64,000 bases of DNA, from the NCBI RefSeq assembly GCF_988242995.1, contig NZ_OZ547043.1; one strand, given 5' to 3'. Within the stretch, counting starts at the first letter, position 1, and each line of letters opens with the position of its first letter. Below the pieces are notes generated by a model. That model did no database searches. It was not told where the DNA came from and saw only the letters and a program-made list of their open reading frames with translations. Positions 4,398-62,716 of the stretch are shown one piece after another. Position numbers and translations under genes: made by a program.

Positions 4398-5396
4398 TTA
4401 GCGTTTCGCTTTACTGCTACGCTGGGTCAGCAAGATATTCGCCAGCACCGCCACCACGATGATGACGCCGCGCACCACCTGCTGGAAAAAGGAGTTAATC
4501 CCGAGCAGCACCAGACCGTTACCGATTAGCGTAATCACCAACACACCAAGCAATGTACCAAACAGGGAACCGCGACCACCGGAAAGCGCCGTACCGCCAA
4601 CCACGACCGCGGCGATGACGTCAAACTCCAGACCGTTTGCGGCACCTGCGTTACCGGAACCGAGGCGCGCCGCCAACAAAATGCCGGTCACCGCTGCTAA
4701 TAATCCCGAAAGGGTAAAAATAAGAATGCGTACCCGACGAACGTTAATACCGCACAACTGTGCTGCAGTGGCATTACCGCCAACAGCAAAAACCGAGCGC
4801 CCGAAGGCGGTTTTGCGGCTAATGAACACAAACAGCGCAAATAACACCATCATGATCAGCGCGGATACCGGCACACCGAGAAATTGTCCCCCCAGCCAGT
4901 CCAGCACTTCGTTTTCGTCAATCGGCACTGGCAAGGCGTTCGTCATAAACAGCCCCATTCCGCGCAGGGCGCTCCACAGCCCCAGCGTGGCCACGAAACT
5001 TGGCACGTTAAACACGCCGCGCAGCACCCCGGCGAGCGTTCCCATCAGCGCGCCTAACAGCAACACCAGCAGACAAGCAATCGCCAACGGAACTTCAAAT
5101 TGCAGCAAAAATGCCAGGCACACCGAGACAAAAGCCACCATCGGCCCAACGCTGACATCAATTTCACCGGAGATAATAATCAGCGTCATCGCCCAGGCGG
5201 CAATCCCAATGGTGGCGGCATCGCGCAGCACGTTCATCTGGTTATTCAATGAGATAAAGCCCGGCGCGTTCAGGGAGAAGACCAGATAAAGAATGGCGAT
5301 CACCACCAGCAAACCGATCTCATTAATATGGCGACTGACAAATTGTTTGAGCGAGACGCTCTTGCCCTGCGGCAATGGTAATGACGAAGCAGACAT
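4398..5396 (-). CDS. yphD: ABC transporter permease (monosaccharide, CUT2 type)
   Basis: 332-aa polytopic hydrophobic ORF between the ATPase and dehydrogenase genes. Confidence 0.88.
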   Translation of the reverse strand: MSASSLPLPQGKSVSLKQFVSRHINEIGLLVVIAILYLVFSLNAPGFISLNNQMNVLRDAATIGIAAWAMTLIIISGEIDVSVGPMVAFVSVCLAFLLQFEVPLAIACLLVLLLGALMGTLAGVLRGVFNVPSFVATLGLWSALRGMGLFMTNALPVPIDENEVLDWLGGQFLGVPVSALIMMVLFALFVFISRKTAFGRSVFAVGGNATAAQLCGINVRRVRILIFTLSGLLAAVTGILLAARLGSGNAGAANGLEFDVIAAVVVGGTALSGGRGSLFGTLLGVLVITLIGNGLVLLGINSFFQQVVRGVIIVVAVLANILLTQRSSKAKR

Positions 5397-5420
5397 CTTC
5401 AGGTTCCTCGGTAAAATTCA

Positions 5421-6932
5421 TCAGTGCACAGACAGAATGGCGGACATCAGCTCATCCACATTGACCGGCGAGTGAAACTCCTGCGAGAACGTACCGTGCT
5501 GTAATAACAGGATGCGGTCACACACCAGCGGCAACTCCTCCACTTCACTGGAGATAAACACCACACTTTTTCCTTCGGCAGCCAGCTCGCGGACAATACG
5601 GTAAATCTGCTGTTTGGCTTCGATATCGACGCCACGCGTTGGCTCGTCGAGCAACAAAATCTGGCTGGCGGCATAGACCCAACGACCGATCACCACTTTT
5701 TGCTGATTGCCGCCAGAAAGCGTGCCGATGGGCGTTTCGCTACTGGCGGCCTTGACCGTCATCCGCTGCATCACCTCTTCGGTCAGGCGGCGGATGGTGG
5801 ACCATTGCAGCACACCGTTGGCGCTGATTTTTTGCCGATTGGTCAGCACTGTATTTTCGTCAACGCCCAGCCAGGGAATGATCCCCGCTTCTTTGCGGTT
5901 TTCTGGCGTATAGCCAATGCCGCGTTTCAGCATGTCGCCGTAATCGGGGCGCGTGATTTTCTCGCCGTTGATAACAATTTCGCCCTGTTCATACGTCTCC
6001 AGCCCAACTATGGCTTTCAACAATTCACTGCGCCCTGCCCCCAGCAGGCCAGCAATGCCGAGCACTTCGCCACGACGGAGCGTAAAGCTGATATCCTCCA
6101 GCTTGGGCTTATGGCGTAACGCACGGACTTCCAGCACAGCCTGATCGACAATTTCCTGAGGGGAAACCGGCGCAATATCAACGTGATCGCGCCCGAGCAT
6201 TAGCGACACAATATGATGCGTGGAGGTGTTTTCGAGCATCACATCGCCCGCTACCTGACCATCGCGCATAACGGTGGCACAGGAGGCAATGCGGCGGATT
6301 TCTTCCATCCGGTGGCTGACATAAATCACCGCCACGCCCAGTGCCGACATCTTTTTAACCGCGCTGATCACCAGTTCAACTTCCGCACTGGCAAGCGAAC
6401 TGGTAGGTTCATCAAGAATGACCACGCGCGGCTCGCCCTTCATCACCCGCGCAATTTCCACCAGTTGCTTTTGCGCCGGGCTTAGCGTTGAAACAAGTTG
6501 TTCAGGGCTAACGTCAACGCCCAGCGCCTGTAAGCAACGTTGGGCATCCTGCGCCATTTGCAGGTAATCAATCATGCCGTTGCGGCGGGGCCACTGACCG
6601 AGGCAGAGGTTTTCCGCCACCGTCAGTCCCTCCACCAGACTTAACTCCTGATAAACCGCACGAACCCCCAGTTCAGCGGCACGGCGAGTCAACGTAGCTT
6701 CGTCACCTTCCAGTCGCGTCTCGCCAATCCAGATATCACCGCTATCCGGACGTTCACTGCCGGTAAGCATTCGAATGAGGGTCGATTTGCCCGCGCCGTT
6801 TTTGCCTAACAGCGCACGAACTTCTCCTTTATTGAGCGTGAAGTTAACGTTATCCAGCGCAACGACGCCGGGATAACGCTTATTTCCAGCTACCACTATT
6901 GCTACCGGGACTGCCTCTGTTGCCGTGAACAT
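5421..6932 (-). CDS. yphE: ABC transporter ATP-binding protein with duplicated ATPase domains
   Basis: 503 aa with two Walker A motifs (GKNGAGKST and GLLGAGRSEL), as in RbsA/MglA-type sugar importers. Confidence 0.9.
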   Translation of the reverse strand: MFTATEAVPVAIVVAGNKRYPGVVALDNVNFTLNKGEVRALLGKNGAGKSTLIRMLTGSERPDSGDIWIGETRLEGDEATLTRRAAELGVRAVYQELSLVEGLTVAENLCLGQWPRRNGMIDYLQMAQDAQRCLQALGVDVSPEQLVSTLSPAQKQLVEIARVMKGEPRVVILDEPTSSLASAEVELVISAVKKMSALGVAVIYVSHRMEEIRRIASCATVMRDGQVAGDVMLENTSTHHIVSLMLGRDHVDIAPVSPQEIVDQAVLEVRALRHKPKLEDISFTLRRGEVLGIAGLLGAGRSELLKAIVGLETYEQGEIVINGEKITRPDYGDMLKRGIGYTPENRKEAGIIPWLGVDENTVLTNRQKISANGVLQWSTIRRLTEEVMQRMTVKAASSETPIGTLSGGNQQKVVIGRWVYAASQILLLDEPTRGVDIEAKQQIYRIVRELAAEGKSVVFISSEVEELPLVCDRILLLQHGTFSQEFHSPVNVDELMSAILSVH

Positions 6933-6954
6933 AGGGACCTCTGCGAATCAGCGA

Positions 6955-7938
6955 TTAGGGCAGACCATCAACGTGCGTTGCCAGCCACTGTTTACCGTCT
7001 TCCGTTTTGGTATAGAGATCGATAGGCACCTGAATCACTTTTTCACCGTCGGCTTGTTTATTGATAACCTTCAAAGTTTGCGCGAAAACAGCATTGCCCA
7101 TTTTCTTACCGGAAATATCCACCACCGCTTTCAGCACCTGATTGTTTTCCAGCTCCTGAGCAATTTCAGTGGTCATATCCGAACCGAAAACAGCAATTTT
7201 TCCGGTCTGATTTTGATTACGTACCGCTTTTACCGCGCCGAGTGTCGCACCGCCCGATTCCCCCATAATGGCGTTGAGATCCGGCGTGGAGATAATTAGT
7301 TTTTCACCAACGGAAATCGCTTTATCTAAAACAGTCCCTTCCTGATTAGCGACAATTTGCGCGCCGGGAACACGGATTTTTAATACTTCTTCAAATCCTT
7401 TACGGCGCTGCACACAAACTTCAAAGGCTTCGCAATTGATGACGGCAATTTTCGGCTGGTCAATTTTGTTGGCAATAAAATAATCGGCGGCAGCGTTACC
7501 CAGTTTTTTACCAAATTCCAGCGGATCGCCGACCAGATACGCCGAGACATATTTATCGACGCCTTTTTGATTAATACAGGTGTTGTAGCAAATTACCGGA
7601 ATACCCGCTTCACTGGCGCGACGAACGGTACGGCTACTGCCATTTTCAGACACTGCCGATAAAATAATGGCATCGACATTACGCGCCACGAGGGTATCAA
7701 CAAAGGTACTTTCTTTCGAAATATCACCCTGGGCGTTAGTTTCAATTAACTGTACCTGTACTGAAGAATCTTTTGCCGCATCCTGAACGCCCTGACGCAC
7801 ACCAGCGTAATATCCCTGGGTATCAAGGTATATTGCGCCAATGGTCATTTCTTTATCCGCAGCCCTGGCAAATAGTGCGCTACCTAATAGCGTAGCCATT
7901 AATAATAGATTACGGGTTGTTCTCATTTTTTTAGGCAT
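6955..7938 (-). CDS. yphF: periplasmic sugar-binding protein of ABC transporter
   Basis: 327-aa ORF with N-terminal signal peptide (MRTTRNLLLMATLLGSALFARA). Confidence 0.88.
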   Translation of the reverse strand: MPKKMRTTRNLLLMATLLGSALFARAADKEMTIGAIYLDTQGYYAGVRQGVQDAAKDSSVQVQLIETNAQGDISKESTFVDTLVARNVDAIILSAVSENGSSRTVRRASEAGIPVICYNTCINQKGVDKYVSAYLVGDPLEFGKKLGNAAADYFIANKIDQPKIAVINCEAFEVCVQRRKGFEEVLKIRVPGAQIVANQEGTVLDKAISVGEKLIISTPDLNAIMGESGGATLGAVKAVRNQNQTGKIAVFGSDMTTEIAQELENNQVLKAVVDISGKKMGNAVFAQTLKVINKQADGEKVIQVPIDLYTKTEDGKQWLATHVDGLP

Positions 7939-8034
7939 AGTACCTCCTGTAGGGTTTTTATTTACAACGGCTTATTTTAATTATTTGAGCGTGAGCGGCA
8001 GCGCGTGCCGCTCAAATATTACAGTTAATAAGGT

Positions 8035-11000
8035 TTAGCGAACGCGGTTAAAAATAAAAGGCATCACGGTGGTGAATAATGCTGCTTTCGGCCAGGCCGG
8101 ATTAATCGCCGTCAATTCAGCGCGAGCAGATTCATATTGCGCAACCTCCCCTAGTCCCGCGGACGCCAGCATCGCCACCATCAGGCATTTTTCTTTATGC
8201 TGCTGTTGTAAATCGCCATACAGCGACAACAGGTCAGGTTGCGAGACGGCAAAGAAATCCGCTTCGATACTGGTTTTCGCCATCTCTTGCGCCCACAGTT
8301 TCATTTCACTAAACAGTTGCTGTGCGGTGTGTTGTTCGCCCAGCAGTCGCAGCGCCATTCCTTGCCAGAAGAGATAATCAACCGGCTGATCGTTGTAATA
8401 ACTGTGGATGTTAATGGTGCGATCGCCGGTCGCCGCCAGACGTAAACAACGCGTCGCTTCAGTTTCATCGCCCTGCGCGTTGGCGCATATCGCCTGCCAG
8501 AACCAGATGTCGTTATCAGTTTGCCCCGGTAAACGGCCTTCGCTTAAATTCTCCGGATAATGCAGCGCGGCATGAAGCAGTTCGCTGGCCTGCTGCGGCT
8601 CTCTGGCATCAAGATGCTGCCAGGCGCGTAATAACTGGTTGAGGATAAACTGACTGGTGATCTTCCCTTCCCCGCCTTCCCACGGGTGGAATTTGCGCGT
8701 GGCGAGAATGTCCGCCGCTTTGTCTGCCTGACCCGTGAGATGCCACAAATTGAGCAGTTCTGCGGTCATGTCGTCGCGTTTCAGCGCAATTTCCAGATTA
8801 TTTTCCAGACGCGCCAGTCGTTTCTCCGGTGTGGCTCCACTTAACTTATCCAGCAAATCCCGTTCGAAAAGCAGACGTGCATCCTGCGGCGCAAGCTGAT
8901 AAGCATTATCAAGATAACGCGCGGCCAGCTCATAATCGTGTTGCTTATTCCACGCATGGATCGCTAACCCGCGCCAACCGTCGGCAAACTCCGGCGACAT
9001 CTCTACGCAACGTTGCCATAAAGTAATGGCTTTGTTGTAGCTGCGCTTGTTGTAGTAGAAGCAGGCCAGTAAATGACGGGCAAACCAGCACTCTTCAATA
9101 CTCTCCAGCGCCGCCACTTCTTCCAGCGTATTCGGGAAACGGACAAACTGCGGGAAGACATCAATGGCTTTTGCGACCAGTTCGCCGCGTTCGGCTTTCG
9201 GCAGCAAGCTGGCTTGCAGGTAAAGCGGCAGCGTGCGCTGGCAGTCCAGTGCGTTCAGCATCTCTGCCGCCAGGGTGGGCATTCCCCAGTTAATCAGTTG
9301 CCCGGCGGTCATCAGGGCGTTAACGTCGCGTCCCTGACACAGACCGCGCCACTGCGCGAGGGCTGATTCGCTACGACCATCGAACCAGTTCAGCCACCAC
9401 AGAGTGGCGTTCAGCGGATAATCGCGCAGCAGTTTCTCGCGCTGCAAACGCGCGTTGTCCTGACGACCACTTAACACCAGCAGCAGATTATGCAGGCAAA
9501 GCACTTCCTGATTGGTTGGGCAGGCGCGAAGACTTTGTTGGCAAAAATCCAGACCAGCATCGAAGTGACCATTACGCGTCGCCAGTCGTGCCAGACCATA
9601 ATAGCCGCCTGCTTTACTATTGCCGCTCCAGACCGCACGCCAGAAATCCTCTTCGGCTTGTTGATATTGTCCCTGACGTTCGTAAGCACTGGCGCGAATC
9701 AAACTGGCCTGTCCGCACTGCGGATTTTTGTTCAGCGCATGTGCGCGTTTCAGCGCCTGAGTGGCATACGCCACCGCTTGCGGGAAATCGGCGCGGTTAT
9801 ATTCCAGCATCGCCAGCGCCAGGTTACAGCGATAATCCAGCGGATCCAGCGCCACGCCGCGCAGGTAGTAATCGAACGGTGAACGGCTGGCGTGATGATA
9901 TTGCTCCAGATGCTGACCGATAAACCAGGCTTCATCTGTACTGGTAATGTCTTGTGCTGCCAGTGGCGCTTTGGCGACGTCCGGCAACGGCAACTCTTGC
10001 GGCTGATGTTCCTGATAACTCAGTATGATATTGCCGTCGGCATCGGAGAGTTCAATGGTCAGCCTTTCAGGATTGATACCGTGCAACACGCCCTGGATGG
10101 CGGTCGCTGGTGTCAGGGCCACGGCATCATCGAGTAACGCGTTGCATTTGCCGATTTCGCGGATCGCCAGACGGTATCCTTTCAACGGAGAGATGGCATA
10201 CAGCCCCCACTCAATCCCCCGCTCACTACGCTGGAGTTTTATCACCGCATCGCGGGAGGCATTTTGCACCATGCCCAGAGAATGATAAGGCAGGAAATAC
10301 TGCTCGAAACGCTTCTCTTCGTACGCATCAAGCCAGGTAAAATCAGGCTGGTTATCGGCAAAAATACCGGTCATCAGTTCGATATACGGGCCGTTATTGT
10401 CGGTCAGACTCTTATCCCACGCCTGGCCAAATTCACTGTGTCCCCAACTCCACTGTTTTTTACCTGGCGCAATATGGTGGTTGGCAACGTGCAGCAAACC
10501 GCCATCTTCATCGTGACACCACGCGCCAACAAAATCGTACTGTGATTTTTCAGCCATATATGAGGTTGGAACAGGCACATTTTTATAGCGAGAAATGTCC
10601 ACTCCAGCGGAGTAGTCCACTTTGTAGTAAGTGCCGGTGGCGATGGGGAAAGCAGAGACGGCCCGTTTGCCGTGATCAAACACCGCAGTCACATCCGGTG
10701 GGAAAACGCTCTGATGCCCTTCACCCCCTTTCACTGCCGGGTTGGCCCACCACAAGAAATGACGCGGCGTGGCGTTGCCGTTATAGACGCGGCTGGCGAT
10801 TTCCAGCGCCGCCCGGTCAGGACGCAGGGTGAAACCTGTCATCACCTGTAAACCATGCATCGGCTCCGTTTCGCCTACCCACACCGTCTGTGCGCCGTCT
10901 TCATGGGCTTCGAGGGTGAAATCAACGGGCATAAAGGTGGTCGGGCGATGGTGTTGCGGCCAGTTAAACTCAATCCCGCCGGAGATCCACGGTCCCAGCA

Positions 11001-12642: not shown

Positions 12643-12670
12643 GAAAGGCTTCCCGAAGGAAGCCTTTTTT
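12643..12670 (+). terminator. intrinsic terminator after yphH (also abuts glyA 3' end)
   Basis: gaaaggcttcc-cgaa-ggaagccttttttc hairpin followed by T-run. Confidence 0.7.
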
Positions 12671-12690
12671 CAACAGATTAACCGTTTCGC

Positions 12691-42690: not shown

Positions 42691-42722
42691 AATGCCGGGT
42701 TTAAGCCCGGCATTATTTTTAT
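42691..42722 (+). terminator. intrinsic terminator after srmB
   Basis: aatgccggg-tttaag-cccggcatt hairpin followed by atttttat; overlaps the stop of convergent yfiE. Confidence 0.7.
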
Positions 42723-54025: not shown

Positions 54026-54344
54026 GCCATTATGTCTCCTGCCGTAATCCGATGCTTTTGTCGGTCGCTGTTGTTTATTTTTTTTGGTAAAGAAAATGTT
54101 ATACATTTGTTGCGTATCATTATGCAACCTTAACCATGAATTTAGTTAGCAGGAAAATGGTTATTGAGGAGCTTAAGGATAAATTTCTGGTAAGGAGGAT
54201 GTATGGAAGTGGGCAATTTGGGGAAACCGTATCCGTTGCTGAATCTGGCGTATGTGGGGGGATAATGCGGATATCTACACTCGCCGCAACTCTTCGTAGG
54301 TCGGGTAAGACGCGCCAGCGTCGCATCCGGCATTTATTCCGCAC

Positions 54345-54557
54345 CAGCGCAAAAAGGCCATCCGTCAGGATGGCCTTCTGCTTAATTTGATGCCTGGCAG
54401 TTTATGGCGGGCGTCCTGCCCGCCACCCTCCGGGCCGTTGCTTCGCAACGTTCAAATCCGCTCCCGGCGGATTTGTCCTGGTTGGGAGAGTGTTCACCGA
54501 CAAACAACAGATAAAACAAAAGGCCCAGTCTTCCGACTGAGCCTTTTGCTTTATTTG
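54345..54557 (-). terminator. rRNA operon tandem terminators T1 and T2
   Basis: Reverse complement matches the rrnB-type T1/T2 terminator block; hairpins at about 54517-54546 (T1) and 54351-54379 (T2), each followed by a U-tract. Confidence 0.85.
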
Positions 54558-54677
54558 ATGCCTGGCAGTTCCCTACTCTCGCATGGGGAGACCCCACACT
54601 ACCATCGGCGCTACGGCGTTTCACTTCTGAGTTCGGCATGGGGTCAGGTGGGACCACCGCGCTAAGGCCGCCAGGCA
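54558..54677 (-). rRNA. rrfG: 5S ribosomal RNA
   Basis: 120 nt; reverse complement reads UGCCUGGCGGCC...CUGCCAGGCAU. Confidence 0.93.
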
Positions 54678-54770: not shown

Positions 54771-57675
<2,905 letters not shown>

Positions 57676-57868
57676 TCACAACCCGAAGATGTTTCTTTCG
57701 ATTCATCATCGTGTTGCGAAAATTTGAGAGACTCACGAACAACTTTCGTTGTTCAGTGTTTCAATTTTCAGCTTGATCCAGATTTTTAAAGAGCAAATAT
57801 CTCAAACATCACCCGAAGATGAGTTTTGAGATATTAAGGCAGGTGACTTTCACTCACAAACCAGCAAG

Positions 57869-57944
57869 TGGCGTCCCCTAGGGGATTCGAACCCCTGTTA
57901 CCGCCGTGAAAGGGCGGTGTCCTGGGCCTCTAGACGAAGGGGAC
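57869..57944 (-). tRNA. gltW: tRNA-Glu (UUC anticodon) in the 16S-23S spacer
   Basis: 76-nt reverse complement GTCCCCTTCGTCTAGAGGCCCAGGACACCGCCCTTTCACGGCGGTAACAGGGGTTCGAATCCCCTAGGGGACGCCA. Confidence 0.93.
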
Positions 57945-58029
57945 GTGTCAGTCTGCTTCGCAAGACGCCTTGCTTTTCACTTTCTATCAGACAATCTGTG
58001 TGAGCACTTCAAAGAACGCTTCTTTAAGG

Positions 58030-59571
<1,542 letters not shown>

Positions 59572-59752
59572 AAAAGTTTGATGCTCAAAGAATTAAACTT
59601 CGTAATGAATTACGTGTTCACTCTTGAGACTTGGTATTCATTTTTCGTCTTGCGACGTTAAGAATCCGTATCTTCGAGTGCCCACACAGATTGTCTGATA
59701 AATTGTTAAAGAGCAGTGCCGCTTCGCTTTTTCTCAGCGGCGCGGGGTGTGC

Positions 59753-59925
59753 ATAATACGCTTTCCCGCTACAGAGTCAAGCATTTTTTTTGCTTTTCTC
59801 TGTTGAGATTCTCAGGAGAACCCCGCTGACCCGGCGGCGTGTTTGCCGTTGTTCCGTGTCAGTGGTGGCGCATTATAGGGAGTTATTCCGGCCTGACAAG
59901 CAAAAAATATAAAAACTTTATCGTT
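59753..59925 (-). promoter_or_regulatory. rRNA operon tandem promoters P1 and P2 with AT-rich UP element
   Basis: P1 -35 TTGTCA (59894-59899), -10 TATAAT (59872-59877), GC-rich discriminator; P2 -35 TTGACT (59775-59780), -10 TATTAT (59753-59758); A/T tract 59900-59925. Confidence 0.75.
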
Positions 59926-59980
59926 CGCTCATTTTTCAGGCAAAACATCTTAAGCATAGTCTTTTCCGTCTAATTTATAG

Positions 59981-60008
59981 ACAAAAACGAGCCCCGAAGG
60001 GCTCGTTT
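59981..60008 (-). terminator. intrinsic terminator after clpB
   Basis: acgagccc-cgaa-gggctcgt hairpin followed by UUUUU on the minus strand. Confidence 0.7.
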
Positions 60009-60013
60009 TATCA

Positions 60014-62587
60014 TTACTGGACGGCGACAATCCGGTCTTCATTAACTTCCAGGCGAATAACTTTACCCGGAACCAATTCACCAGACAGTATTTGCTGTGC
60101 CAGCGGGTTTTCGATCTGCTGCTGGATAGCACGTTTCAGAGGACGTGCACCATAGACCGGATCGTAACCGTTCTCGCTCAGCAGTTTCAGCGCCTCGTCA
60201 GAAATGTGGATTTCATAACCACGTTCTTCCAGACGTTTGTACAGACGTTTCAACTGAATCTGCGCAATCGACGCAATGTGCTGTTCACCCAGCGGATGGA
60301 AGACCACCACTTCATCGATACGGTTAATGAATTCCGGACGGAAGTTATGGCTTACCACACCGAGCACCAGCTCTTTCATGTGCGCATAATCCAGTTCACC
60401 GAAGCGTTCCTGAATCAAATCGGAACCGAGGTTAGAGGTCATAATGACAACCGTATTACGGAAGTCGACCGTTCTCCCCTGCCCGTCAGTCAGACGCCCA
60501 TCATCCAGTACCTGCAACAGAATGTTGAAGACATCCGGATGCGCTTTTTCCACTTCATCCAGCAGGATGACGGAATACGGACGACGACGCACCGCTTCGG
60601 TCAGGTAGCCACCTTCTTCATAACCGACATATCCCGGAGGCGCACCAACCAGACGAGACACCGAGTGTTTCTCCATAAACTCGGACATATCGATACGGAC
60701 CATCGCCTCGTCGCTATCAAACATAAAGTTCGCCAGCGCCTTACAAAGCTCAGTTTTCCCCACACCCGTTGGGCCGAGGAACAGGAATGAACCAATCGGG
60801 CGATTTGGATCCGCCAGCCCCGCACGGCTACGACGAATAGCGTTAGATACCGCATCAACCGCTTCGTTCTGACCAATAACGCGATGGTGCAGCTCTTGCT
60901 CCATACGCAGCAGTTTTTCGCGCTCGCTTTCCATCATGCGAGAAACCGGAATCCCCGTCCAACGCGCCAGCACTTCAGCAATTTCGGCATCGGTCACTTT
61001 ATTACGCAACAGACGCATAGTTTTGCCTTCGAGCTGCGTTGCGGCTTCCAGTTGCTTTTCCAGTTCCGGGATTTTGCCGTATTGCAGTTCAGACATCCGC
61101 GCCAGGTCACCCACACGGCGAGCCTGTTCAATAGCGATTTTCGCCTGTTCCAGTTCCGCTTTAATGGTCTGTGTACCAGAAAGCGATGCTTTCTCTGCTT
61201 TCCACTCTTCTTCTAACTCGGAGTACTGACGTTCTTTGTCGCTCAGTTCTTCGTTGAGCATATCCAGGCGTTTTTTACTGGCTTCATCAGACTCTTTCAT
61301 TAACGCCTGTTGTTCCAGTTTAAGCTGGATGATACGACGATCGAGTCGGTCGAGTTCTTCTGGTTTTGAGTCGATCTGCATACGAATGCTGGATGCTGCT
61401 TCATCGATCAGGTCGATGGCTTTATCCGGCAGCTGACGGTCAGCAATGTAGCGATGAGACAACGTCGCCGCTGCAACAATTGCCGGGTCAGTAATTTGCA
61501 CATGGTGGTGCAATTCGTAACGTTCTTTCAGGCCACGCAGAATCGCAATGGTATCTTCAACAGAAGGCTCGGCAACAAACACTTTCTGGAAACGACGTTC
61601 CAGCGCAGCATCTTTTTCGATGTACTGGCGATATTCGTCAAGCGTCGTGGCACCTACGCAGTGCAATTCACCACGCGCCAGCGCCGGTTTCAGCATGTTT
61701 CCGGCGTCCATTGCGCCATCGGCTTTACCCGCGCCGACCATGGTATGTAATTCGTCGATAAACAGGATGACGTTGCCTTCCTGTTTGGCAAGATCGTTAA
61801 GCACGCCTTTTAAACGTTCTTCAAACTCACCGCGATATTTCGCCCCAGCCACCAGCGCGCCCATATCCAGCGCCAGTACGCGGCGGCCTTTCAACCCTTC
61901 CGGCACTTCGCCGTTGATAATACGCTGCGCCAGACCTTCAACGATGGCAGTTTTACCGACGCCGGGTTCACCAATCAGTACTGGGTTATTTTTAGTACGA
62001 CGTTGCAGCACCTGAATGGTACGGCGAATTTCTTCATCACGACCAATCACCGGATCGAGTTTGCCCTGTTCGGCTCGTTCGGTAAGGTCGATGGTATATT
62101 TTTTCAAAGCCTGACGTTGGTCTTCAGCACCTTGATCGTTCACGCTTTCACCTCCACGCATTTGTTCAATCGCTTGAGTAATGTTGGCGGTGGTCGCCCC
62201 TGCTGCTTTCAGGATGTCGGCCAGCGTGCCGCGAGACTCAAGTGCCGCCAGAACGAACAGTTCTGACGAGATAAAGTTATCACCACGTTTTTGCGCCAGC
62301 TTGTCGCAAAGATTAAGAACGCGCACCAGATCCTGTGATGGCTGGACATCACCACCAGTACCTTCAACCTGCGGTAAACGATTTAATGCCTGATTGATAT
62401 CTGTGCGCAACTGGCCAGCATTTATGCCAGCGGATGTTAATAAAGGACTAACCGAACCCCCTTCCTGATTCAGCAGGGCGCTCATTAAATGAAGTGGTTC
62501 GATGAATTGGTTGTCGTGCCCGAGTGCAAGTGATTGGGCATCGGCAAGAGCAAGCTGGAATTTATTAGTAAGACGATCCAGACGCAT
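60014..62587 (-). CDS. clpB: AAA+ disaggregase chaperone ClpB
   Basis: Start at [11 protein letters not shown] (857 aa); two nucleotide-binding domains (GEPGVGKT and GPTGVGKT) with coiled-coil middle domain. Confidence 0.93.
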
Positions 62588-62626
62588 AACTCCTCCCATA
62601 ACGGATCAAAGTTGCTACTGGAGATT

Positions 62627-62654
62627 AAATGAGGTCATCCCTCAATTATTCAAG
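62627..62654 (-). promoter_or_regulatory. sigma32 (heat-shock) type promoter of clpB
   Basis: Minus-strand CCTTGAA-N14-CCTCATTTAA resembles the sigma32 consensus, about 35-60 nt upstream of the clpB ATG. Confidence 0.55.
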
Positions 62655-62716
62655 GTTATTGACCAGATTAATGTGAAAAGAAAATCACGCGTACCGGATC
62701 GTCTTGATTCTTTAGG

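What the first reader, a model, noticed from the sequence alone, without database searches (positions are those of the whole stretch)
59753..59925. Tandem rRNA promoters with A/T-rich upstream element
P1 (TTGTCA-16-TATAAT, followed by a GC-rich discriminator) and P2 (TTGACT-16-TATTAT) lie about 120 bp apart. An A/T tract immediately upstream of P1 (59900-59925) is consistent with an UP element. Expected for an rRNA operon, but clearly readable.
Basis: partly seen in the sequence, partly recalled or inferred. Interest (0 to 1): 0.2.

Follow-up and report, generated by a model that had tools for sequence, protein, structure and literature searches.

The report
Tandem rrnG ribosomal RNA promoters
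This is the well-known pair of promoters (P1 and P2, with P1's A/T-rich booster element and Fis-protein binding sites) that drives the rrnG ribosomal RNA operon of E. coli; it is read correctly and is entirely ordinary.

Summary
On the minus strand, P1 (TTGTCA-16-TATAAT, discriminator GCGCCACC, +1 A at 59863) and P2 (TTGACT-16-TATTAT, +1 C at 59746) lie 119 bp apart. They sit between the clpB terminator and a complete 16S–tRNA-Glu–23S–5S operon. The locus is E. coli rrnG, collinear with K-12 at 97–98.6% identity.

P1 is the only 11-of-12 sigma-70 match in the whole 64-kb window. Its core is identical to K-12 rrnG, rrnA, rrnB and rrnC.

The A/T tract (−59 to −38) is positionally conserved in 117 distinct P1 regions from Enterobacterales, Aeromonas and Vibrio. 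It matches the SELEX UP consensus only moderately, with a good distal half and a T-rich proximal half.

Verdict: supported, already known, low interest.

The parts
59980..60012 (-). clpB intrinsic terminator, upstream boundary of the promoter region. Core hairpin CGAGCCC-TTCG-GGGCTCG at 60005-59988, T-tail at 59987-59983.
   Evidence: Folds at -20.3 kcal/mol, z = -6.2 against shuffles. It follows the clpB stop codon (ORF 60014-62599). The hairpin is conserved in clpB-linked orthologues of other genera.
59968..59982 (-). Distal Fis-like site GTCTATAAATTAGAC (palindromic), centred at about -112 from the P1 start.
   Evidence: Perfect match to GNNYRWWWWWYRNNC, one of 13 in the window. G-N13-C with an A/T centre recurs at this place in Enterobacteriaceae orthologues. 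Fis binding is inferred, not shown.
59927..59941 (-). Fis site I, GCCTGAAAAATGAGC, centred at -71.
   Evidence: Perfect match to the Fis pattern. Across 117 P1 regions, G at -78 is 92% conserved, C at -64 is 91%, and -74..-69 is an A-tract. The segment scores 16.1 bits on a matrix built from non-Escherichia P1s, rank 1 of 127,970 positions in the window.
59901..59922 (-). P1 UP element (-59 to -38), GATAAAGTTTTTATATTTTTTG.
   Evidence: 81% A+T. The tract is positionally conserved: 83-100% A/T at -57..-48 and 82-99% at -46..-41 in 117 P1 regions. It scores 10.5 bits on a non-Escherichia matrix, and only 10 of 127,956 positions score as high. It matches 8 of 15 positions of the SELEX consensus.
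59894..59899 (-). P1 -35 hexamer TTGTCA.
   Evidence: Identical in K-12 rrnG/A/B/C.
59872..59877 (-). P1 -10 hexamer TATAAT, after a 16-bp spacer.
   Evidence: CTCCCTATAATGCGCC is invariant in all seven K-12 operons.
59863..59871 (-). P1 discriminator GCGCCACC (59871-59864) and start site A (59863).
   Evidence: The start is set by homology to the K-12 mapped TSS 2731448.
59784..59799 (-). A-tracts upstream of P2 (AGAAAAG and an 8-A run), at -53 to -38 from the P2 start. An UP-like region for P2.
   Evidence: A/T is 75-100% in the 7 positions at the equivalent place in 53 distinct P2 regions of other species. Function is inferred.
59775..59780 (-). P2 -35 hexamer TTGACT.
   Evidence: TTGACTCTG is invariant in the seven K-12 operons.
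59753..59758 (-). P2 -10 hexamer TATTAT, after a 16-bp spacer.
59746..59752 (-). P2 discriminator GCACAC (59752-59747) and start site C (59746).
   Evidence: Homology to the K-12 Cappable-seq TSS 2729354 in U00096.2, which is 2731332 in NC_000913.3. SMRT-Cappable-seq gives 2731329, 3 nt further into the C-run.
59703..59741 (-). Leader antitermination signals: boxB hairpin GCCGC...GCGGC (59741-59718) and boxA TGCTCTTTAACAA (59715-59703).
   Evidence: Exact boxA match. From boxA to the 16S gene the leader is essentially invariant in all seven K-12 operons. The boxB stem is read from the sequence. Function rests on established knowledge of rrn antitermination.
58030..59571 (-). 16S rRNA gene, the first gene transcribed from P1/P2. 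The leader is 292 nt from P1 and 175 nt from P2.
   Evidence: Rfam SSU model, 1578.9 bits, full length. tRNA-Glu, 23S and 5S follow.

Best explanation
These are the tandem sigma-70 promoters P1 and P2 of the rrnG ribosomal RNA operon of an E. coli strain.

P1. RNA polymerase holoenzyme recognises the near-consensus hexamers. The two alpha-subunit C-terminal domains bind the A/T-rich UP element at -59 to -38. Fis bound at -71 (and probably at about -112) stimulates further through contact with alpha. Three features make the open complex short-lived: the 16-bp spacer, the imperfect -35 hexamer, and the GC-rich discriminator with C two bases after the -10 hexamer. Because of that, P1 output follows the concentration of the initiating NTP and is inhibited by ppGpp with DksA. 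This gives growth-rate and stringent control.

P2. It lies 117 nt downstream, has the same architecture, and starts with C. It provides a more constant level of transcription.

Both transcripts run through the boxB-boxA leader, which loads the antitermination complex, into 16S, tRNA-Glu, 23S and 5S.

Shown here: the positions, sequence identity, conservation, and start sites in the K-12 orthologue. Inferred from established knowledge of rrnB P1/P2: alpha-CTD and Fis binding, kinetic instability, and regulation.
For: - A complete rRNA operon lies immediately downstream on the same strand, with clpB upstream. The window is collinear with K-12 2,671,430-2,735,586, so the locus is rrnG.
- The P1 -35, spacer, -10, discriminator and start are identical to K-12 rrnG/A/B/C. 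The P2 hexamers are identical too.
- K-12 5'-triphosphate ends map exactly to the predicted starts: 6734 reads at P1 and 6154 at P2 in Cappable-seq, and 2731448 in SMRT-Cappable-seq, with coordinates worked out.
- P1 is the only 11-of-12 sigma-70 match in 64 kb.
- All four sequence criteria for iNTP-sensitive E. coli rRNA promoters listed in PMC3113569 are met by both promoters.
- The UP position and the Fis I position are conserved across 117 P1 regions from many genera. The window's segments score in the extreme tail of the window background.
- 23 loci from Escherichia to Vibrio have the same clpB-terminator-Fis-UP-P1 order.
- 49 of 63 loci with enough downstream sequence have a P2.
- PMC7069363 summarises the measured effects of UP elements (20-50 fold) and Fis sites (3-8 fold) at rrn P1 promoters.
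Against: - Nothing was measured in the strain the window comes from.
- The UP segment matches only 8 of 15 positions of the SELEX consensus. It scores 10.5 bits against a median of 19.3 for other P1s, so it may be a weaker UP element than that of rrnB.
- The SELEX consensus itself is quoted from memory, because the paper is not held.
- At the loose scan threshold the number of promoter-like sites is no more than chance.
- The P1 leader is identical in rrnA/B/C/G for about 80 nt, so operon-specific read counts may be affected by multi-mapping.
- The SMRT-Cappable-seq P2 coordinate is 3 nt from the Cappable-seq one. I attribute this, by inference, to trimming of 5' C-runs in that protocol.
Confidence: 0.97

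Rival explanations
1. The A/T tract is not a functional UP element. It is only A/T-rich intergenic DNA, such as intrinsic curvature, spill-over from the adjacent Fis site, or a nucleoid-protein site, and P1 strength comes from the core promoter and Fis alone.
For: The match to the SELEX UP consensus is modest at 8 of 15, and the proximal half is a T-run rather than an A-run. The score is below the median of other P1s.
Against: - The A/T richness is tied to position (-57..-48 and -46..-41), flanked by G/C-preferring columns at -59, -47 and -40..-37, in 117 distinct P1 regions. Composition alone would not give that pattern.
- Only 10 of about 128,000 positions in the window score as well.
- Per the title of Hirvonen et al. 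2001 and the summary in PMC7069363, UP elements were examined at all seven K-12 rrn P1 promoters. K-12 rrnG differs from the window at a single base (-39) in this segment.
Confidence: 0.03
2. P2 is a fortuitous consensus match inside the P1 transcript, not an independent promoter.
For: It lies within a transcribed leader. A 10-of-12 match occurs by chance about 7 times per 64 kb in shuffles.
Against: - Capped (5'-triphosphate) ends map 7 nt downstream of the identical -10 hexamer in all seven K-12 operons, with 5,000-10,000 reads each.
- TTGACTCTG...GCGTAWTAT is conserved in all seven K-12 operons and in 49 of 63 loci from other genera.
Confidence: 0.01
3. The operon is mainly transcribed by read-through from clpB, and the hexamers are relics.
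For: clpB is on the same strand, 114 bp upstream of the P1 -35 hexamer.
Against: A strong intrinsic terminator lies between them. It is conserved in orthologues. Primary 5' ends are mapped at P1 and P2 in K-12.
Confidence: 0.005

Closest known systems
E. coli K-12 rrnG P1-P2 promoter region (clpB-rrsG intergenic, NC_000913.3 2731158-2731599)
   Same: Same locus and gene order. P1 from -35 to +1 is identical and the P2 hexamers are identical. The UP and Fis site I positions, the boxB/boxA leader and the clpB terminator are the same.
   Different: There are 8 substitutions and 2 single-base indels in about 450 bp. They include T for C at -39, A for G at -69 inside Fis site I, one extra A plus G-to-A giving an 8-A run upstream of P2, and A for G in the P2 spacer (as in K-12 rrnC). 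The exact P1-region allele occurs in 90 complete E. coli records and the exact P2-region allele in 77, of about 5,400.
E. coli rrnB P1 / P2 (the experimentally dissected paradigm)
   Same: The core P1 and the P1-P2 interval up to about +80 are identical. P2 is identical except for one spacer base. Downstream of boxA the leader differs at a single position. The architecture is the same: Fis sites, UP element, 16-bp spacer, GC discriminator.
   Different: The UP element sequence differs. rrnB has AGAAAATTATTTTAAATTTCCT and the window has GATAAAGTTTTTATATTTTTTG. Sequence upstream of -60 is unrelated apart from the Fis I pattern, and the upstream gene is murI rather than clpB.
rrn P1 promoters of other Enterobacterales, Aeromonas and Vibrio
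   Same: TTGTC-N17-TATAATGCGCCNCC core, an A/T tract at -57..-41, G(-78)/C(-64) of Fis site I, a downstream P2, and often clpB upstream.
   Different: Spacer sequence, UP details and the P1-P2 distance vary. The P2 -35 hexamer starts at +61 to +90 in other species and at +84 here.

Membership tests
E. coli-type rrn P1 promoter (iNTP/ppGpp-sensitive sigma-70 promoter) | [quoted passage not shown] | tested here: met
   The spacer GGCCGGAATAACTCCC is 16 bp. The criterion is listed in PMC3113569.
E. coli-type rrn P1 promoter (iNTP/ppGpp-sensitive sigma-70 promoter) | -35 hexamer not full consensus, and no extended -10 (TGn) | tested here: met
   TTGTCA is 5 of 6. The bases before TATAAT are CCC, and the scan reports no TG.
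E. coli-type rrn P1 promoter (iNTP/ppGpp-sensitive sigma-70 promoter) | G/C-rich discriminator with C two bases downstream of the -10 hexamer | tested here: met
   GCGCCACC is 7 of 8 G/C, and its second base is C.
E. coli-type rrn P1 promoter (iNTP/ppGpp-sensitive sigma-70 promoter) | Lies upstream of, and on the same strand as, a 16S-23S-5S operon | tested here: met
   The 16S 5' end is 292 nt downstream. tRNA-Glu, 23S and 5S follow.
E. coli-type rrn P1 promoter (iNTP/ppGpp-sensitive sigma-70 promoter) | Primary (5'-triphosphate) transcript end at the predicted +1 | tested here: met
   Met in the K-12 orthologue, whose core sequence is identical: Cappable-seq 2729470 in U00096.2 and SMRT-Cappable-seq 2731448 in NC_000913.3. 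Not measured in the source strain.
E. coli-type rrn P1 promoter (iNTP/ppGpp-sensitive sigma-70 promoter) | Short-lived open complex; regulation by iNTP, ppGpp and DksA | not testable with these tools
   This needs in vitro kinetics or reporter assays. It is inferred from sequence identity with rrnB P1.
UP element (binding site of the RNA polymerase alpha C-terminal domains) | A/T-rich segment at about -60 to -40, directly upstream of the -35 hexamer | tested here: met
   Positions -59..-38 are 82% A/T. The enrichment is position-specific in 117 P1 regions and lies in the extreme tail of the window background.
UP element (binding site of the RNA polymerase alpha C-terminal domains) | Match to the SELEX consensus NNAAAWWTWTTTTNNAAAANNN (quoted from memory of Estrem et al. 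1998) | tested here: inconclusive
   8 of 15 specified positions match. The distal half matches 8 of 11 and the proximal half 0 of 4, being a T-run. Other P1s typically match 10-11.
UP element (binding site of the RNA polymerase alpha C-terminal domains) | Alpha-CTD-dependent stimulation of transcription | not testable with these tools
   Reported for rrn P1 promoters in general as 20-50 fold (PMC7069363). Not measured for this allele.
Fis-activated rrn P1 (Fis site I) | 15-bp G-N13-C site with an A/T centre, centred at -71 | tested here: met
   GCCTGAAAAATGAGC at 59941-59927 is a perfect match to the degenerate pattern. G-78 and C-64 are more than 90% conserved. The site ranks first in the window on a cross-genus matrix.
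Fis-activated rrn P1 (Fis site I) | Fis binding and activation | not testable with these tools
   This needs footprinting or a fis mutant.
rrn P2 promoter | Second sigma-70 promoter about 120 bp downstream of P1, with a 16-bp spacer and a G/C-rich discriminator | tested here: met
   TTGACT-16-TATTAT with discriminator GCACAC. The hexamers are 119 bp from those of P1. Conserved in 7 of 7 K-12 operons and in 49 of 63 other loci.
rrn P2 promoter | Independent primary 5' end | tested here: met
   K-12 rrnG P2 has 6154 Cappable-seq reads at 2729354 (U00096.2), the C 7 nt after TATTAT. SMRT-Cappable-seq is within 3 nt.
rrnG operon (as opposed to the other six rrn operons) | clpB immediately upstream, tRNA-Glu in the spacer, kgtP side downstream | tested here: met

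The most novel reading that the evidence does not exclude
This lineage carries minority alleles at rrnG. A T at -39 extends the T-run up to 2 bp from the -35 hexamer. A perfect AAAAA centre replaces AAAAG in Fis site I. An 8-A run with one extra base lies upstream of P2, and the P2 spacer has A for G. Together these might measurably shift rrnG promoter strength or the P1:P2 balance relative to K-12. That would be natural variation in rRNA operon tuning.
Probability: 0.15. Interest if true: 0.15.

Novelty: already known. Interest (0 to 1): 0.05.

Why it matters
It matters only as annotation. It fixes the transcription starts (59863 and 59746), the regulatory parts and the operon identity (rrnG) for this window. 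The rrn P1/P2 system is one of the most thoroughly studied bacterial promoter systems, and nothing here changes that picture. The cross-genus profile (UP element and Fis site I fixed in position from Escherichia to Vibrio, often downstream of clpB) confirms known biology and is not a discovery.

Tried and rejected
- The loose promoter scan found exactly the two promoters, but its count is not above chance. I replaced it with a whole-window scan at stricter thresholds.
- The terminator scan did not call the clpB terminator. This is probably because its A/U-extended stem absorbs the T-run. Direct folding shows a strong hairpin.
- The primary papers are not held: Hirvonen 2001 and Estrem 1998. 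I used papers that summarise them. The SELEX consensus is therefore from memory, and I added a consensus-free test with matrices built from other genera.
- A matrix for a possible conserved site at -98..-84 gave no signal in the window (-3.4 bits). The window's second Fis-like site is at -112 instead.
- Plus-strand ORFs of 40-44 aa overlap the promoter region. I disregarded them as mechanical ORFs in a region fully accounted for by promoter elements.
- The Fis pattern is not enriched across the window as a whole (13 found against 9.9 expected). Only its local clustering and cross-species conservation carry weight.

Full report
**What is at the coordinates**

Read on the minus strand, the interval contains the following, with coordinates checked by script and by the consensus scan.

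| Promoter | −35 | Spacer | −10 | Discriminator | Start |
|---|---|---|---|---|---|
| P1 | TTGTCA, 59899–59894 | 16 bp, GGCCGGAATAACTCCC | TATAAT, 59877–59872 | GCGCCACC, 59871–59864 | A, 59863 |
| P2 | TTGACT, 59780–59775 | 16 bp | TATTAT, 59758–59753 | GCACAC, 59752–59747 | C, 59746 |

The hexamers are 119 bp apart.

**Is it more than chance?**

- The loose scan gives two sites in 2 kb against 1.9 ± 1.3 in shuffles. The count by itself is not evidence.
- Over the whole 64-kb window and both strands, P1 is the only match at 11 of 12 or better (shuffles 0.5 ± 0.7).
- Only three sites reach 10 of 12 (shuffles 7.4 ± 2.8). Two of them are P1 and P2, on one strand, inside the 442-bp gap between clpB and the 16S gene.
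- Only 0.31% of 26-nt windows are as A/T-rich as the tract.

**Context and identity**

Rfam and ARAGORN place a complete operon immediately downstream on the same strand:

- 16S at 59571–58030
- tRNA-Glu at 57944–57869
- 23S at 57675–54771
- 5S at 54675–54560

Upstream is clpB (ORF 60014–62599), followed by a strong terminator hairpin (−20.3 kcal/mol, z = −6.2).

The 449-bp intergenic stretch matches the clpB–16S junction in 5,415 of 5,426 complete E. coli genomes at 80% coverage or more. The best match is 99.6% identical. The whole window is collinear with K-12 2,671,430–2,735,586 at 97–98.6% identity. The locus is therefore rrnG of an E. coli strain somewhat diverged from K-12.

**Comparison with the seven K-12 operons**

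- From −35 to beyond +1, P1 is identical to K-12 rrnG, rrnA, rrnB and rrnC.
- CTCCCTATAATGCGCC is invariant in all seven operons.
- The P2 hexamers are identical to rrnG/A/B/C. The single P2 spacer difference from K-12 rrnG is shared with K-12 rrnC.
- From boxA (TGCTCTTTAACAA, 59715–59703, exact match) to the 16S gene, the leader is essentially invariant.
- Against K-12 rrnG the window has 8 substitutions and 2 single-base indels in about 450 bp. None falls in a hexamer, a discriminator or a start site.
- The exact P1-region allele occurs in 90 complete E. coli records and the P2-region allele in 77. These are minority natural variants.

I converted the predicted starts to K-12 coordinates: P1 at 2731448 and P2 at 2731332 in NC_000913.3.

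- Cappable-seq, which captures 5′-triphosphate ends, lists rrnG P1 at 2729470 (6734 reads) and P2 at 2729354 (6154 reads) in U00096.2 (PMC4782308, supplementary table 2).
- The offset of 1978 is the same one needed for rrnD. For rrnH, which lies before any difference between the two assemblies, the published coordinate 223485 equals my prediction directly.
- SMRT-Cappable-seq was mapped to NC_000913.3 itself. It lists rrsG-operon starts at 2731448 and 2731329 (PMC6131387, supplementary file 4).
- The second of these is 3 nt further into the CCCC run than the Cappable-seq P2 start. I attribute this, by inference, to trimming of 5′ C-runs in that protocol.

So the starts are the A 9 nt after TATAAT and the C 7 nt after TATTAT, and the test is passed in the orthologue.

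One caveat: the P1 leader is identical in rrnA/B/C/G for about 80 nt. Operon-specific read counts, and the paper's three expression classes, may therefore partly reflect read mappability.

**Class features**

PMC3113569 lists four determinants of iNTP-sensitive E. coli rRNA promoters:

- a 16-bp spacer
- a −35 hexamer that is not full consensus, and no extended −10
- a G/C-rich discriminator
- C two bases after the −10 hexamer

P1 and P2 both meet all four.

**The A/T tract as an UP element**

They come from Enterobacterales plus Aeromonas and Vibrio. In 117 distinct upstream regions, A/T content depends on position:

- 83–100% at −57 to −48 (A-rich, then a T-run)
- 82–99% at −46 to −41
- G/C-preferring columns at −59, −47 and −40 to −37

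The window follows this pattern. On a matrix built only from non-Escherichia sequences it scores 10.5 bits. Only 10 of 127,956 positions in the window score as well, but the median for other P1s is 19.3.

Against the SELEX consensus (quoted from memory) it matches 8 of 15 positions. The distal half is good and the proximal half is a T-run.

I conclude the tract is in the right place and under positional conservation, and may be a weaker UP element than that of rrnB. Binding by the alpha C-terminal domains and the size of the effect are inferred. PMC7069363 summarises 20–50-fold effects for UP elements and 3–8-fold for Fis sites at rrn P1 promoters.

- **Fis site I.** GCCTGAAAAATGAGC (59941–59927) is centred at −71. 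It matches GNNYRWWWWWYRNNC perfectly. G at −78 and C at −64 are conserved in more than 90% of the 117 regions. It is the single best-scoring position in the window on the cross-genus matrix (16.1 bits).
- **A second Fis-like site.** GTCTATAAATTAGAC (59982–59968) is a perfect, palindromic match centred at −112. It has G-N13-C counterparts in Enterobacteriaceae orthologues. The window holds 13 such matches in all, so two within 56 bp is a local cluster, even though the window-wide count is not above chance (9.9 expected).
- **A-tracts upstream of P2.** They lie at 59799–59784, which is −53 to −38 from the P2 start. The equivalent positions are conserved in 53 distinct P2 regions.
- **The boxB hairpin and boxA.** They lie at 59741–59703.

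**Orthologous junctions**

23 of the 120 loci have clpB directly upstream. The species include E. albertii, Citrobacter, Siccibacter, Pseudescherichia, Erwinia, Pantoea, Mixta, Dickeya, Pectobacterium, Edwardsiella, Xenorhabdus and Vibrio ezurae. Their alignment shows the same order of parts: terminator hairpin, distal G-N13-C site, Fis I, UP, P1. 49 of 63 loci with at least 150 nt downstream carry TTGAC-N17-TAWTAT, beginning at +61 to +90 (the window's begins at +84).

**Mechanism**

*Shown:* the sequence anatomy, identity with characterised promoters, conservation, and primary 5′ ends in K-12.

*Inferred from the established rrnB P1/P2 model:*

- Sigma-70 holoenzyme binds the hexamers.
- The alpha C-terminal domains bind the UP element.
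- Fis at −71 activates through alpha.
- The short spacer and the GC discriminator make the open complex unstable, so P1 responds to iNTP, ppGpp and DksA.
- P2 gives a steadier output.
- The boxA leader recruits the antitermination factors.

**Rivals**

- An A/T tract with no UP function is contradicted by the position-specific conservation.
- A fortuitous P2 is contradicted by capped 5′ ends at P2 in all seven K-12 operons.
- Read-through from clpB is contradicted by the conserved terminator and the mapped starts.

**Verdict**

The feature is the already-known rrnG P1–P2 promoter region. The only open point is whether this lineage's minor allele differences change promoter strength, which would be of slight interest.

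Noticed in passing
window 54265-54545 (minus strand, just after the 5S gene): The window has about 276 nt here where K-12 rrnG has 65 nt. The extra sequence reads like the double-terminator module I recall from rrnB (T1, then a duplicated 5S 3' end, then T2). AACTGCCAGGCATCAAAT occurs both at the 5S end and again about 170 nt downstream, each time followed by a hairpin. The scan calls the first hairpin. The best full-length matches in complete E. coli genomes are only 93-94% identical and lie next to yjaB, that is, at another rrn operon. This suggests exchange between rrn operon ends.
   Followed up: partly
window 57945-58029: The 16S-tRNA-Glu spacer is 85 nt here against 171 nt in K-12 rrnG. 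This is a length variant of the internal transcribed spacer.
   Followed up: no
window 58324-58337 (inside the 16S gene, minus strand): A TACAAT box lies at 58337-58332, with an A 8 nt downstream at 58324. It corresponds to the internal K-12 start 2729910 listed by SMRT-Cappable-seq for tRNA-Glu. It also matches the TACAAT-associated start noted in Cappable-seq Note D, and the 'riRNA' promoter of PMC5179076.
   Followed up: partly
whole window, both strands: Strong sigma-70 consensus matches (10 of 12 or better) are rarer in the real sequence than in dinucleotide-preserving shuffles: 3 against 7.4 +/- 2.8. This is consistent with selection against spurious strong promoters.
   Followed up: no
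window 62568-62706 and 62588-62599: Rfam places the RyfD sRNA over the 5' end and upstream region of clpB. The mechanical clpB ORF begins four codons (MGGV) before the MRLDRL start annotated in K-12.
   Followed up: no
window 12666-12681 and 42691-42715: K-12 carries about 150 bp more than the window at each of these two intergenic points. These may be small repeat elements that are present in K-12 and absent here.
   Followed up: no
loci L011-L128 (for example L107 Vibrio ezurae, L112 Xenorhabdus, L117 Dickeya): An rrn operon directly downstream of clpB, with the terminator-Fis-UP-P1 order, is conserved well beyond Escherichia, out to a Vibrio.
   Followed up: partly
window 57783-57795: A second boxA-like sequence, TGCTCTTTAAAAA (one mismatch), lies in the tRNA-Glu-23S spacer. 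It overlaps the start of the Rfam StyR-44 match at 57683-57791.
   Followed up: no
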